64,000 nt of DNA, from assembly GCA_040954595.2 (NCBI GenBank), contig CM082596.2:3713025-3777024 (forward strand), in the 5' to 3' direction. The notes beneath the pieces are model-generated. The model did no database searches. It was given only the letters and a program-made list of their open reading frames with translations, and was not told the origin of the DNA. Shown here one piece after another: positions 12,601-18,600 of this stretch. Position 1 is the stretch's first letter. Every line of letters begins with the position of its first letter. Source of the stretch: Balanoglossus misakiensis (Eukaryota; Animalia; Hemichordata). The position numbers and the translations under genes are program-made.

Positions 12601-15600
12601 CTTTTCTAGGTTTATTGAAATAACACCAACCTGTATCCAGTTCTAATAGGTACCCCATCTCTGGTCCATGTGAGTTCAGGAGCAGGGTTGGCTTTGACTT
12701 GACAATCAAAGCGAGCCTGGCCTCCCTCAATGAACTTGGAAGGTTGCATCTTCCTGGTAAACTCTGGTGCTTTTGCATCTTTCATATCAACCTGCGCTGG
12801 AGCTGCATGTCTGTGAGAAAGAGATAAAAAATAAAAGACTCAGATATTGTCACTCGTAAATTATTCCACAAGAACATTTCCCACAAAGTTAAAAATAATT
12901 GTACTTTGGAGGGATTAAGAGAAAGTGATACTTACAGAGTCTTTGGTGTTAATTTTGGAATCTTCTCTGGTGGAGGTAACTCTTTCTCTGCAAGAGTAAA
13001 AAATATTATTAATGATTCATCTTAACTTCTCCATAGTAGTCAGATATGAGAGCTTTTGGCCTGGTCAGTCAAGTAGGATCCAAAGTCATTATAGGATTAA
13101 TATAAATACAGCTACATAGTTGAAAGACACCCTTTGAAACAAAACTTACCAAGTACTCTCAGATAACACGTTGTGGACTTGCTTCCAGCAGAGTTAGTAG
13201 CTGTACAGACGAATTTTCCGGCATCGTCAATGAATACCTCTGGAATGGCCAAGATGCAGACATCGCCATGTTGCTTGATGTCAAAATCCATGGATGGTTC
13301 AATAAGTGCTCCTTCCCGATACCAGCGTACCTGTGGTGGTGGCTGGCCTCGGACTATGCATTCCAGAGTTGCAGAGTCACCTTCAGTTGCACTGACAGTT
13401 GACAATGGCTGTGTGGGGGAAAACAAAGACATTGACATCAATGGGAGCCTTCGATCAAGAAAAGAAACAGAGGAAAGCAGTTGTAAGGGATAAAACTTAA
13501 AAAAGTCAGTGTACATAAAATCCATATTAGACATATATTTACCTTGGTAAATGAAGGTGGTGATCTGTCTGGAGGTTTTGGTGGTCCGGGCACAGCAGCA
13601 TCTACAGGTGCATGCACTGGCTTGATGACCTCAGCTGGTAACGCCTCCTTTCTTACAGTTGTGGTTACCTTGGTGATCTGAGACAGAGAATGCAACATTT
13701 TGTATGTGTAACAACAATATGGTGTAACTCCTTGATAACTACATCTCCAACAAATGCTACAAACCTGACAAACTCCGACAGAAAAATATGAGTTTATTAA
13801 GATGATTTCTCACCTCTTCAGTAGTTTTGGTGGTGACAACACCCTCGGCCTGATCTTCAGGTGGACTTTCAGACTCTGATGAGGATTCCTCTGCAATGAC
13901 AAGTCAAGATCAAAGATTAACGTAAAGCCATGGCAACATAATCAAAAATACATTAAGTTTCTATATTCAGGGTCACGTGAATAAAGGGAACCACAAAACC
14001 TACTTTTCACTACAATACTGGCAGTGCATTCAGCAACACCAGCTGGATTCTCGATGGTTACGGTGTACGTTCCCGCATCTTCTTCTCTAGATTTTGGTAT
14101 TACCAAAACACATAGGCCCGACTCTTCCCTTATCATCGTCCTATGTGCTGGCGTTGATTCGATCTTCTTGTGGTTATGTAGCCAGGTTACTTCTGGTTTA
14201 GGTTTTCCTTTAATCTTGCATTCTAAACGCATTGGTTTTCCTTCTGTCACTTCACGGCTGTGTAAGCGTTGCGTAAACTCTGGCGCCTCAGTTGCACCTG
14301 TGTGAAGAGAAGAAAAAAAGTAGAAATGAGATCCAATTCTCTGGACCAGAAACCGTGCCAGAAATCTGCAATTTCCCATCATGAAAACTTCAAGTGTAAC
14401 TGTAATAAATTTCATATGTGGTAAAAATATTATGCTCATTTTCTTCAAAAGATGTACGCTGCTCAACCCTTGTATCAAAATGGCACAGCCAAACTAACTA
14501 CACAACACAATGATACTGAATGGCCTATGCTAAGATTCTGAGGGGTGCCAATAGACTACGAGATCTTACCTCTTACTACAAGCTCAGCACTGGTTGATGC
14601 TGTGCCTGCAGCATTCGTTGCTGTACAGATTATTTTCCCGGCATCTTCGTCAAAGACTTCTGGTATAGTCAGGGTGCAGTGACCTTTGTCATAGCGAATG
14701 GTGTAATCTGGGGAGTCTTTCTTCTTCAATTCCACACCCTGCATAGACCAGACGATGCTCGGTTCAGGGGTACCTGGACAAAAGAACACACAGAAAATAC
14801 ACAATAAGAAAATGCAACAAAGTCTGAAATAAATTGGGAAAATTATGAGGCTGTTTTTCTGACTAGAAAGTCAACATGCCACTAAATGTTATCATTTATG
14901 TCCAGTGCTTTTAACTCTATAAATTTTATTGCAACTTCTCCACAGAGTTACAGCATTTATGGTCACAGTCAGTTCCTATCAAACCCTAATGGATGACCAA
15001 TACTGGTGAAGTCAAAGGGCACTGACCTCACCAGACGTTGTTATGTTGTCTTTATCGGGAAATATATGACATCACCATGGTGACGTTGATGGGTAACGAT
15101 GGTATAAATCTTATCAATCAGTTGGGATGTAACTAATTTTAAGAGGGATGAGGTTTCGTCCAATTGGGAAACTTGGAAGACATGGCAATAATGAAGATTT
15201 GTTGCCACATTTGATGTATCAGTACCGGTACCAGCAGCTGAAAACAGATTGCCACTGACCTGTAACCACTGCCTCAAAGCGAACCTCCTTTCCTTCGAGG
15301 ACAGCTTGGTTTTCCAGCATCTGAGTGAACTGTGGTGCCTCTTCTTCTTCCGTCTCAACTTGCTCTTTTTGCTGAGACATGATGGTTCTCTTGGTAAATT
15401 TGCTGATAGTAACGGTTTGTGGTTGGAACCTAGCAGAAAAAGAAATAGGAAATTAAGCAACAGTCTTCCGCGAAGAGTCGACATGGCAACATGAGAAGAG
15501 TGTACATGTGATCTGCAAGTGACCCCACCAAGGCCCCGCCCGGAAAACTACTGGAATCTAAAAATAAACAATCAACCAAAATATCATAACTCACTACTGG

Positions 15601-18600
15601 TAATTAGTAGCAGCGGATAGAGACACAGTTCAATGTGGGCAAAGAATGCAAGGTTTAAATTTTAAATGCCATGTGTGAGGGGTCCTTTAGAGGGGTTTTA
15701 AACATGTCTTGGAATTCAGCAGTTTATCAAATATTTATTCATTTAAAAAACATGAAAGCGAAAATTAATGAACGTGGTTATTACTAAATGACACCGACTG
15801 AAACATATGAGAGAACTGATGGACTACTAAAATTTGTTAAATAACAGCATAAAAATCTCACCAAAAGTTTTATCTAAGAAAATTAAAAAAAGCCAGGAGT
15901 ATATTCAAAATATGGTAAGTTTTTTTTAGTTTGGGGAGAAATACACAACTCATAGGGTTAACAAGCAGTAAAAACAATCATGGACACCCCGAGTCAGCCA
16001 CAGCGCATCGAGAACATCTTGGCATTTCAAACATTCTGTTCTATAAAAATGTGCCGGCAACTATCACTGCCTCTTTGGGAGAACCAAACCAGCAAATCTT
16101 TAAAAGGCAAGTGACATTATCAAGGAAAGAAATCCCCAAAACACTCGGCCAATATGTAGGGCATCCCCCTCCTACCTTACCGAAGTACCAATCCAAGCAA
16201 GAAAACTCCAAAACCAAGAGATTACAGGGTAGAGCTAGGGAGCTGAGGTGACACGAACCGATATAGATTATTCTAATGAGATGGAGCGTCCAGGGTGATA
16301 CGTCTCCAAGCCTGCTGGTAATTTGATGCAAGCTTAGCTCAGGCATGGCCATAATAGGTGAAAAATAACTCCCTAGGCTAAGTCGGCTCAAACGAGGCCA
16401 ATAACATCAACAGACCTCCCAGATAATGTGGTGAAGCTACGTGATTTCCACTACGCAGCTGACATTGTGAAATGGAAATGGGTGTTTTACGTATTTGCCT
16501 TTTCTGCAATACTGGAATTGTCAAATCTAACTCACAGTTTGGTCTGGCAGAGTTGCAGTGATCATTTCAGAGAATGGAGGACTTGATAACTTGCTATAAC
16601 TACTAAACCAAGGCTATGGACCTGAAATTACCACCCTGTTGACCATGGGACCTTCACCACTGATACTATCCAACACAGTGAAAAACCAGCGACATTAAGA
16701 CTGCCATGTACAAGACGTCTCTGAAGCAACAGTTCATATCACAGTACACCACAATGGTCAGTATTAACATTCAAGTTTTTCCTAAATACTATCGTTTTAC
16801 ATTTCATTCATTTGTGTCAAGAGTCAATTTAGTAAAGAAGATGTTGGAACTGCTCATATTTCACTGATGAAATTCTACCATGTATGACTGCCAGCACGAG
16901 CTAAATAATACATATGTGGACTTTTTAATGTCAAATAAAAGTGTCTTTGCAGGAATAACTACATCAATTTACTGGTATGATGTCAAAGATGGCTGGTGAA
17001 TTTGGCCTTTGTACTTCTGAATAAAACACCAAGGATGACAGAGGAAAGTTTTATCAGAGCTGTCCAGAATGTATGACAATAAAGTGAGATGCATCAAACG
17101 TTAGCTTGGATGATATCATAACTTTCCATGTGAAATAAAATACGGCAAATTCTGGTTGCTATCTTTGCTATGTCTATAGCAATTAGAGTAATTAAATACA
17201 TTTTAACATTTCTCGCTCCTCTATTTTGTCAAGTCTCTGATAATTGAATCCTTTGCGAGTTTGTTTATTTAGACTCAATTACTCAATCAGTGGCCCCCTG
17301 CTACCTTGTGGGCCAACAGTAATTAATCCCATGTGATGACTATCATTATATTTGTTATGCATTACTGATGACATTAGATGGTGGGCCCCTTAGGCAATAA
17401 TAGAAACCCCACTCCCAAGGAACCGACGTCAAATCGAATCGTCCAATCGTACACAAGAGTATTATGATCAGTCACGTGACATGACACACACTGCTGAGGC
17501 AGCAAATATTTTCAAAGCCATATCAATCATCAATTTGCCCTATGAAAGTATTTCACCAGTAAAAAGGGGTATCAGCGTGAAATGACGTGAAATCGAGAAG
17601 TTTGACATACCTGGGATGGAAGGCTGGTTGGCTCTCGGGACTGCTTGGGGCAGCTGTGGATGCAAATTAATTTAGTATTAAAAAGTCTGACATGATCTGA
17701 AGTCGTGTCAGTGTATGCGGATGTATCGGAATGTGAGGAATGCACTTTGCTCTCAGCTATTCCAGATATGAATAGTATACGTGGAATTCAACTGCTATGT
17801 CTCAACCCTGGATGACTCAAGGAGAAACAGAGTATACAAAGTTTATTTTCTTAATTTTTACAAAAGATAGACAGTACACCGACTATCATAGCTGTCTTTG
17901 GGATACTGAAATGTTCGGTAAATAATGTCCTGATGTGGCAAATGACACAGTCTAATTGTTAAATGAAGTTCTTCTTAATAGTTTGTTTTTTCGAAGAGAC
18001 ATTTTCATGAAGGTCACGACAAACTTGTGATATTGACCTTCAACAGAAGTGATAACTGCAGATGACACAGTTTTATGAAATTTAATGCCTGTATTAAATC
18101 ATATCCGAATTCCAGCCTGATGGAAATGACAGAACTATTTTTTTATTCCAACTGTCTTCCAAACCAAAGATGAATTGTTGAAGTACTTACCAGCCTGTAC
18201 AAACAGCATTGCCATACAGGTAGCCTGGCCAGCAGTATTTGTCACATTGCACGTGAATCTTCCCGCATCTTCATCAAACACTTCTGCGATCACCAGGGCA
18301 TGGTAGTCGCCAGATGAAATGAATTGGTAATCGCCAGAGACGACTGGTTCGCCATCCTTCAACCACGTCACTTGTGGCTGGGGTTCACCAATCACTCTGC
18401 ATTCAAACTTACATGAGCCACCTTCCATCGCGCGGAGGTCGGTAAACTTCTTAAGAAATTGGGGAGCAGTTGCTGGGGCCTTGGCACCTAAGAAATTAAA
18501 GGGAAAACGAAGAAACTTTACCATAAGAATCAAGTCACTTTTGTCAACATTTCTTTCACTCATTCTACACGACAAGCCAAGACTTCCATCTTTAATTTTT

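What the first reader, a model, noticed from the sequence alone, without database searches (positions are those of the whole stretch)
15260..16368. Second internal start at the point where vertebrate titin begins
The exon carrying the first Z1-like residues has an in-frame ATG in good context (ACCATCATGT, 15380) giving MSQQ...APQFTQMLENQAVLEG (compare titin MTTQAPTFTQPLQSVVVLEG). About 750 nt upstream are a strong orphan donor (CG|GTAAGG, 16181), an ATG-free ~60 nt leader, a TATAT element, and a CArG box (CCATAATAGG) abutting a one-mismatch MEF2 site. This would mirror the non-coding exon 1 / coding exon 2 layout of vertebrate TTN. The phase-1 introns after 'VVT-G' and 'LVVR-G' and the 204-nt exon appear to match TTN exons 2-3 as I recall them.
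Basis: partly seen in the sequence, partly recalled or inferred. Interest (0 to 1): 0.78.

Follow-up and report, generated by a model that had tools for sequence, protein, structure and literature searches.

The report
Possible titin start; promoter signals at chance
In an acorn-worm-like genome, an exon at the seam between a CCDC141-like gene unit and the titin-like immunoglobulin array carries a conserved in-frame ATG that could be a titin-only start, but the promoter and leader exon proposed for it look no better than chance and could not be tested with RNA data.

Summary
The described sequence features are all present on the minus strand. These are exon 15429-15260 with an ATG at 15380, the 204-nt phase-1/phase-1 exon 14773-14570, the donor at 16181, an ATG-free leader, and a CArG box abutting a one-mismatch MEF2 site.

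None of the promoter evidence exceeds chance:
- CArG boxes: 6 in the window against 4.8 expected.
- The 16181 donor matches the consensus at 6 of 9 positions, as do 11 other GT sites in the interval.
- There is no TATAWA on the gene strand anywhere in 15430-18190.
- The likeness to titin's N-terminus is the generic I-set A-strand motif. Vertebrate Z1 and Z2 rank this domain pair only 3rd-13th of 30 in the closest relative.

The context is more informative than the motifs. The window is collinear with Saccoglossus kowalevskii "titin-like" XP_006823021.1. It carries a SESTD1-like, CCDC141-like and titin order, the published "connectitin" synteny.

The exon sits at a seam. A predicted 43-nt microexon (17653-17611, the only strong intronic donor) joins it in frame to the upstream Ig array. 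The Saccoglossus model crosses the same junction only by a frame change. The Met and 11 residues before it are conserved.

No RNA run was listed, so the internal start is neither shown nor excluded.

The parts
15260..15429 (-). 170-nt exon: 16 open codons, then the ATG at 15380-15378, an acidic linker, and the A-B strands of an I-set Ig domain. It needs a phase-2 donor upstream and ends in phase 1.
14570..14773 (-). 204-nt phase-1/phase-1 exon, the second half of the same Ig domain
   Evidence: Pfam I-set 56.4 bits. Best single PDB stretch is titin residues 33-98, 27.1 bits.
14004..14297 (-). Single-exon I-set Ig domain, the 'Z2-like' domain
16181..16244 (-). Not supported above chance.
16349..16368 (.). 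CArG box (16349-16358) abutting a one-mismatch MEF2-like site (16359-16368)
17611..17653 (-). Predicted 43-nt microexon (ccacag|C...CCCAG|gtatgt). It converts phase 1 to phase 2 and joins the upstream Ig exon in frame to 15429. Its donor is the only intronic one at 8 of 9.
   Evidence: Inferred; no RNA evidence.
17728..17742 (-). Two CATTCC (MCAT/TEAD-type) motifs 9 nt apart, about 80 nt upstream of the microexon
   Evidence: 2 hits against 0.9 expected in the interval. Found post hoc.
18191..18487 (-). Last Ig exon of the upstream CCDC141-like array, 297 nt, phase 1 to phase 1
   Evidence: I-set 84.6 bits
18135..18190 (-). Read-through of the 18191 donor: 18 more codons, then a stop, with AATAAA at 18147-18142. 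A possible alternative 3' end of the upstream unit.
   Evidence: Inferred only.
15558..15567 (.). Exact MEF2 consensus site 129 nt upstream of the 15429 acceptor

Best explanation
Exon 15429-15260 (minus strand) opens the first immunoglobulin domain after a long linker, at the seam between a CCDC141-like spectrin/Ig unit and the titin-like Ig array of a hemichordate SESTD1-CCDC141-titin ('connectitin') locus. It is most likely read as an internal coding exon, joined in frame through a predicted 43-nt microexon (17653-17611). Its conserved ATG at 15380 could also start a titin-only product. The promoter and leader exon proposed at 16.2-16.4 kb are not supported above chance.

Shown here:
- the exon anatomy and phases;
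- collinearity with S. kowalevskii XP_006823021.1;
- the SESTD1-like, then spectrin/Ig, then Ig-array order on one strand;
- conservation of the Met and of the residues on both sides of it.

Inferred:
- use of the microexon;
- existence of a long fused transcript;
- any internal transcription start.
For: Collinearity and locus order:
- tblastn of P0001 (XP_006823021.1, named) against the window gives collinear HSPs from aa 3 to 3893, window 51.5 kb down to 0.3 kb. I printed only rows of 55% identity or more: 40 rows, 55-96%.
- Pfam finds Spectrin_SESTD1 at 64 bits (cut-off 27) at 57440-57135. It finds DUF7799 and weak Spectrin matches at 38245-37901, 34067-33681 and 32635-29876, and I-set in the Ig exons.
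- This is the order that Hanashima et al. 2025 call connectitin (PMC12198301, sections 12, 18 and 19 read).

In-frame join:
- The donor at 18191 is phase 1 and the exon at 15429 needs phase 2. The 43-nt segment 17653-17611 bridges them with no stop.
- Apart from the flanking Ig-exon donor at 18191, its donor is the only one of 171 GT sites in 15430-18190 at 8 of 9.

Conservation:
- The alignment to P0001 runs from 11 residues before the Met to the exon end, 32 of 51 identical. TIMSQ is shared, and 5 identical plus 3 similar residues lie before the Met.

Seam character:
- The linker is about 45 residues, against about 8-20 between the upstream Ig domains I read.
- The Saccoglossus model crosses this same junction only by leaving the Ig frame. 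Its 'REDSRVVLLTLLARL' corresponds to the window's +1 frame 'REDSRAM*QILLARLPV'.
Against: - No RNA evidence of any kind was obtained.
- The microexon has a modest pyrimidine tract and no counterpart in P0001.
- Its frame compatibility could arise by chance. My rough estimate is one in three to one in six for a given acceptor.
- The frame change in the Saccoglossus model may mean that the two units are not joined productively there, which would favour separate genes.
- Conservation before the Met could reflect a constrained 5' leader rather than coding.
- CArG plus an abutting MEF2-like site in this interval has a nominal post-hoc chance of about 1-2% by my arithmetic. A real regulatory element there is therefore not excluded.
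Confidence: 0.5

Rival explanations
1. A second, muscle-type promoter (CArG plus MEF2-like site at 16349-16368) would start transcription near 16240. A non-coding leader ending at 16181 would splice to 15429, and translation would begin at the ATG at 15380, mirroring TTN's non-coding exon 1 and coding exon 2.
For: - All elements are present at the stated places.
- The leader is ATG-free with an in-frame stop.
- The Met is conserved in S. kowalevskii.
- Human TTN has a first non-coding exon (PMC5123623).
- The CArG/MEF2-like adjacency is nominally uncommon (my arithmetic).
Against: - The donor is 6 of 9, one of 12 such sites in the interval.
- The CArG count in the window is at expectation.
- There is no TATAWA on the gene strand and no CpG island.
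- Residues before the Met are conserved like coding sequence.
Confidence: 0.08
2. A titin-only transcript exists, but its leader is the exon that ends at 17611. Transcription would start a few tens of bases upstream, downstream of the tandem CATTCC motifs at 17742-17728. The same 43 nt would then serve as leader rather than as coding bridge.
For: - 17611 is the only strong donor inside the interval, at 8 of 9.
- Two CATTCC motifs lie 9 nt apart about 80 nt upstream, 2 hits against 0.9 expected in the interval.
- The microexon's acceptor is modest.
- The 43 nt hold no ATG.
Against: - The motif pair was found post hoc among 10 patterns tried.
- An ATG at about 17693 would give a short upstream ORF if transcription began further upstream.
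- There is no RNA evidence.
Confidence: 0.2
3. Two separate genes. The CCDC141-like unit would end by reading through the 18191 donor (18 codons, stop at 18137-18135, AATAAA at 18147-18142). The titin-like gene would begin independently, so the in-frame join through the microexon is accidental and fused models are prediction artefacts.
For: - The read-through tail and AATAAA are present.
- The only annotated relative joins the units through a frame change that destroys the last third of an Ig domain.
- In human the units are three genes (PMC12198301, section 12).
Against: - AATAAA occurs 4 times in the interval against 2.3 expected.
- An in-frame route exists in this window.
- Transcripts spanning zormin-sls and CCDC141-TTN are cited as reported in PMC12198301 section 19. 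I did not read those primary papers.
Confidence: 0.2

Closest known systems
Human TTN 5' end (non-coding exon 1, ATG in exon 2 at the start of Ig domain Z1)
   Same: The ATG lies a few to 14 residues before the A strand of an I-set Ig domain, in an exon that has an acceptor. A tandem second Ig follows. The gene sits downstream of CCDC141-like and SESTD1-like units on the same strand (PMC5123623; PMC12198301).
   Different: - Here the frame stays open upstream of the ATG and can be joined to about 12 upstream Ig domains.
- No transcription start is shown.
- Sequence does not single the pair out as Z1Z2.
- Identity of intron positions was not tested.
'Connectitin' synteny SESTD1-CCDC141-TTN / CG15822-zormin-sls (Hanashima et al. 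2025, PMC12198301)
   Same: There is a SESTD1-type spectrin repeat, then a spectrin-plus-Ig unit, then a titin-like Ig array, all on one strand in this order. Like zormin, the middle unit has several Ig domains.
   Different: - The paper's passages I read describe human, Drosophila, cnidarians and placozoans.
- S. kowalevskii appears there only in tree legends.
- Whether the hemichordate units are one gene or three is not stated in what I read. Its supplements were not seen.
S. kowalevskii XP_006823021.1 'PREDICTED: titin-like' (6732 aa)
   Same: It is collinear with the window over aa 3-3893. The same exon is present with TIMSQ, the acidic linker and the Ig start.
   Different: It has no counterpart of the 43-nt microexon. 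It reaches the exon by reading the end of the preceding Ig domain in another frame, so its junction is doubtful.

Membership tests
TTN-type 5' layout (non-coding exon 1 plus coding exon 2 opening Z1) | ATG just before the first Ig domain, in an exon with an acceptor | tested here: met
   ATG at 15380, acceptor at 15430/15429. Met conserved in P0001.
TTN-type 5' layout (non-coding exon 1 plus coding exon 2 opening Z1) | An upstream non-coding exon with a functional donor and a transcription start | not testable with these tools
   No RNA run was listed. Sequence gives only candidates: 16181 at 6 of 9 and 17611 at 8 of 9.
TTN-type 5' layout (non-coding exon 1 plus coding exon 2 opening Z1) | The domain pair is the orthologue of titin Z1Z2 | tested here: inconclusive
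   Forward: the best HSP of the window pair in bird and bat titin fragments is residues 4-194. Reverse: vertebrate Z1Z2 ranks the pair 3rd of 35-37 HSPs in P0001. Z1 alone ranks 3rd-6th of 30 and Z2 alone 11th-13th of 30. In the window other Ig exons score higher.
TTN-type 5' layout (non-coding exon 1 plus coding exon 2 opening Z1) | Intron positions and the 204-nt exon identical to TTN exons 2-3 | not tested
   The window side is confirmed. No vertebrate exon table was on hand, and the paper search found nothing. In the PDB alignment the intron falls one residue before titin residue 32. The crinoid partial model P0117 begins near the same point.
Connectitin locus (SESTD1-CCDC141-titin in tandem) | SESTD1-like unit upstream | tested here: met
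   Pfam Spectrin_SESTD1, 64 bits against a cut-off of 27, at 57440-57135. The SEC14 part is my reading only: Pfam gave no family for 60128-59823 or 59583-59242.
Connectitin locus (SESTD1-CCDC141-titin in tandem) | A middle unit with spectrin repeats followed by Ig domain(s), then a titin-like array, on the same strand | tested here: met
   The Spectrin matches are below Pfam's cut-off (17.8-22.7 bits against 29.9); DUF7799 is above it (46.5 against 27).
Muscle promoter of the CArG/MEF2 type | CArG and MEF2 sites enriched or conserved near a transcription start, with a core promoter element | tested here: not met
   CArG is at expectation. The abutting site has a mismatch. There is no TATAWA and no CpG island. 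Conservation could not be tested, as no relative's DNA was available.

The most novel reading that the evidence does not exclude
The hemichordate locus is a living intermediate of titin evolution: CCDC141-like and titin units still form one in-frame transcription unit through a 43-nt phase-shifting microexon. At the same time an internal muscle promoter already produces a titin-only protein from the conserved Met, at the seam that became the vertebrate TTN start.
Probability: 0.2. Interest if true: 0.65.

Novelty: new member of a known kind. Interest (0 to 1): 0.33.

Why it matters
How titin became a separate gene from its SESTD1/CCDC141 neighbours is an open question raised by the 2025 connectitin proposal. 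An ambulacrarian locus in which the seam can be read both as an internal coding exon and as a first coding exon would let that question be tested directly with RNA from one animal. As it stands, the finding is a reasonable hypothesis with no direct support, and its promoter motifs are ordinary.

Tried and rejected
- RNA evidence: the look-up of sequencing runs on window 12500-22400, kind rna. No RNA holder was listed, so read laying could not be used.
- Whole genome: none is held for this window.
- Earlier notes of this scan: nothing by place, by sequence or by words.
- Protein fragments that would show what precedes the exon in transcripts:
  - The 56-aa exon against proteins of 99-2000 aa gave no hit among 25 candidates.
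  - P0001 residues 2060-2210 against proteins of 30-3701 aa gave 8 hits among 745 candidates. All were distant (33-45% identity; nematode, insect, fish) and none was hemichordate.
- Intron positions of human TTN: the paper search for c.91+1, c.92-1, c.92-2, c.295+1 and c.296-1 with TTN found 0 papers.
- Repeats: no repeat family covers 15.4-18.2 kb. Only a tetranucleotide array at 6936-7203 and microsatellite arms at 44.8 and 62.1 kb were found, so a transposon origin for the candidate leader got no support.
- Rejected: 'the likeness to MTTQAPTF...LEG marks the titin start'. The motif recurs in more than 15 Ig domains of P0001. The Ig exon at 23680-23414 also has a Met before the same kind of motif (AMELE...).
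- Rejected: direct splicing of 18191 to 15429. It is out of frame for the Ig domain.
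Full report
**What is there.** The gene lies on the minus strand.
- The exon of the finding runs 15429-15260 (170 nt) behind a pyrimidine-rich acceptor.
- Its ATG is at 15380, in the context accatcATGt.
- The same frame is open through all 16 codons between the acceptor and the ATG (...FQPQTVTISKFTKRTI-MSQQ...).
- The exon ends in phase 1 after VVT-G.
- The next exon, 14773-14570, is exactly 204 nt, phase 1 to phase 1, and ends VVR-G.
- It is followed by a single-exon Ig domain at 14297-14004.
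- The donor tcg|GTAAGG (last exon base 16181), the ATG-free stretch 16244-16181, the CArG box at 16349-16358 and the abutting one-mismatch MEF2 site at 16359-16368 are all present.

**Is it more than chance?** No.
- CArG boxes: 6 in the window against 4.83 expected; 38 of 100 shuffles reach 6.
- One-mismatch MEF2 sites: 185 against 170.5 expected.
- Exact MEF2 sites are enriched in the window as a whole, 18 against 8.36, and 1 of 100 shuffles reaches 18. The site beside the CArG is not one of them.
- GTAAG occurs 75 times on the gene strand and 42 times on the other, a background of about 0.66 per kb.
- Against CAG|GTAAGT, the 16181 donor matches 6 of 9 positions, like 11 other GT sites among the 171 in 15430-18190. 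Ten curated donors of my exon model score 6-8 (one at 6, the rest 7-8); that set includes 17611 itself.
- No TATAWA lies on the gene strand anywhere in 15430-18190 (2.1 expected), and there is no CpG island.
- The CArG/MEF2-like adjacency is nominally uncommon, about 1-2% for this interval by my arithmetic. It is a post-hoc composite.

**What the locus is.**
- An exhaustive protein search with the Ig exon 14295-14005 found 9315 proteins at E of 0.001 or better. The best was P0001.
- P0001 is S. kowalevskii XP_006823021.1, 'PREDICTED: titin-like', 6732 aa.
- tblastn of P0001 on the window gives a collinear series from aa 3 (51.5 kb) to aa 3893 (0.3 kb). I printed the 40 rows of 55% identity or more (55-96%) and dropped weaker rows, which are paralogous Ig matches.
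- The window therefore comes from a relative of that acorn worm.
- Upstream of 33 kb the minus strand encodes helical repeats.
- Pfam calls 57440-57135 Spectrin_SESTD1 (64 bits, cut-off 27) and 38245-37901 DUF7799 (46.5 bits). It gives sub-threshold Spectrin matches at three more exons, and nothing for the two exons I read as SEC14-like.
- A 920-aa proline-rich exon follows at 32635-29876, then about 12 Ig domains, then the exon of the finding.
- This order is the 'connectitin' synteny of Hanashima et al. 2025: SESTD1-CCDC141-TTN in human and CG15822-zormin-sls in Drosophila (PMC12198301; outline and sections 12, 18 and 19 read).
- That paper cites reports of transcripts spanning the last two units (section 19). 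I did not read the cited papers.

**The seam.** The last upstream Ig exon, 18487-18191, ends in phase 1, but the exon at 15429 needs phase 2. Direct splicing is out of frame for the Ig domain.
- A 43-nt segment, 17653-17611 (ccacag|C...CCCAG|gtatgt), bridges the two in frame with no stop. It would encode a Pro/Ser-rich linker.
- Inside the interval, its donor is the only one at 8 of 9.
- The resulting linker of about 45 residues is much longer than those between the upstream Ig domains.
- The Saccoglossus model has no counterpart of this microexon. It leaves the Ig frame in the last third of the preceding domain: its 'REDSRVVLLTLLARL' matches the window's +1 frame 'REDSRAM*QILLARLPV'. That junction of the only annotated relative is therefore doubtful.
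- The exon itself is conserved: 32 of 51 residues are identical. TIMSQ is shared, and 5 identical plus 3 similar residues lie among the 11 before the Met.
- Conservation before the Met fits translation from upstream, although a constrained leader cannot be excluded without the relative's DNA.

**Is this 'where vertebrate titin begins'?** By sequence alone this cannot be said.
- For: the best single PDB stretch for the 204-nt exon is titin residues 33-98, at 27.1 bits against 20.7 for Z2.
- For: the best HSP of the window's domain pair in a bird and a bat titin fragment is residues 4-194, at 35-36% identity.
- Against: vertebrate Z1Z2 ranks the orthologous pair of P0001 only 3rd of 35-37 HSPs, at 131-135 bits against 137-139 for the best.
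- Against: Z1 alone ranks it 3rd-6th of 30, and Z2 alone 11th-13th of 30.
- Against: in the window itself other Ig exons score higher.
- Against: for the second domain, titin I65 scores 48.6 bits. The Z1Z2 entries total about 89 bits over two stretches, and the score of the Z2 stretch alone was not shown.
- Against: Another Ig exon, 23680-23414, also has a Met before it.

The case for this seam rests on position, the phase break, the long linker and the conserved Met.

[quoted passage not shown] The match of intron positions to TTN exons 2-3 was not tested (one search found nothing). In the PDB alignment the window's intron falls just before titin residue 32. A crinoid partial model (P0117, Anneissia japonica) begins near the same point, which is suggestive only.

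**Alternatives inside the interval.**
- Two CATTCC motifs lie 9 nt apart at 17742-17728, about 80 nt upstream of the microexon (2 hits against 0.9 expected; found post hoc among 10 patterns). The exon ending at 17611 could therefore be a leader rather than a coding bridge.
- Reading through the 18191 donor gives 18 codons, a stop, and AATAAA at 18147-18142. This is a possible separate 3' end for the upstream unit. AATAAA occurs 4 times in the interval against 2.3 expected.

**Verdict.**
- My best reading, at confidence 0.5, is an internal coding exon at the CCDC141-like/titin seam whose conserved Met could also be used as a start.
- The specific 16.2-kb leader has a probability of about 0.08.
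- No RNA run was listed, no genome is held, and no hemichordate protein fragments were found.
- The decisive data are junction reads and 5' ends from RNA, and the orthologous intron of a second enteropneust.

Noticed in passing
window 60128-300, minus strand: The whole window is one tandem array on one strand. It runs from a SESTD1-like unit (Pfam Spectrin_SESTD1 at 57440-57135), through a CCDC141/zormin-like spectrin-plus-Ig unit (about 51.5-18.2 kb), to a titin-like Ig array (15.4 kb onward). This is the 'connectitin' order published in 2025.
   Followed up: partly
P0001 (XP_006823021.1) residues about 2046-2088; window 18270-18191: The Saccoglossus gene model reads the last third of the Ig domain before the seam in a +1 frame and lacks the domain's final strands. 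The cause is either an assembly indel or a forced join of two units.
   Followed up: partly
window 32635-29876, minus strand: A single 920-aa open exon, rich in Pro, Glu and Lys. It holds about seven loose repeats of a Y-x-M-P-T-V...P-L-D-W kind, a PEVK-like spring segment inside the CCDC141-like unit. The strong GC and AT skew at 30-32 kb coincides with it.
   Followed up: no
window 17742-17728, minus strand: Two CATTCC (MCAT-type) motifs 9 nt apart, about 80 nt upstream of the 43-nt microexon.
   Followed up: partly
window 15558-15567: An exact MEF2 consensus site 129 nt upstream of the 15429 acceptor. Exact MEF2 sites are enriched in the window as a whole (18 against 8.4 expected).
   Followed up: no
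window 23680-23414, minus strand: Another Ig exon has a Met (AMELE...) a few residues before the same A-strand motif, conserved in S. kowalevskii. It is an equally good look-alike of the titin N-terminus by motif alone.
   Followed up: partly
window 6936-7203: A long AAAC/AAAT tetranucleotide array inside an intron that splits an Ig domain. It is read as a leucine/phenylalanine-rich false ORF on the gene strand.
   Followed up: no
window 44841-44954 and 62130-62221: Complementary trinucleotide microsatellites about 17 kb apart, giving homopolymeric false ORFs.
   Followed up: no
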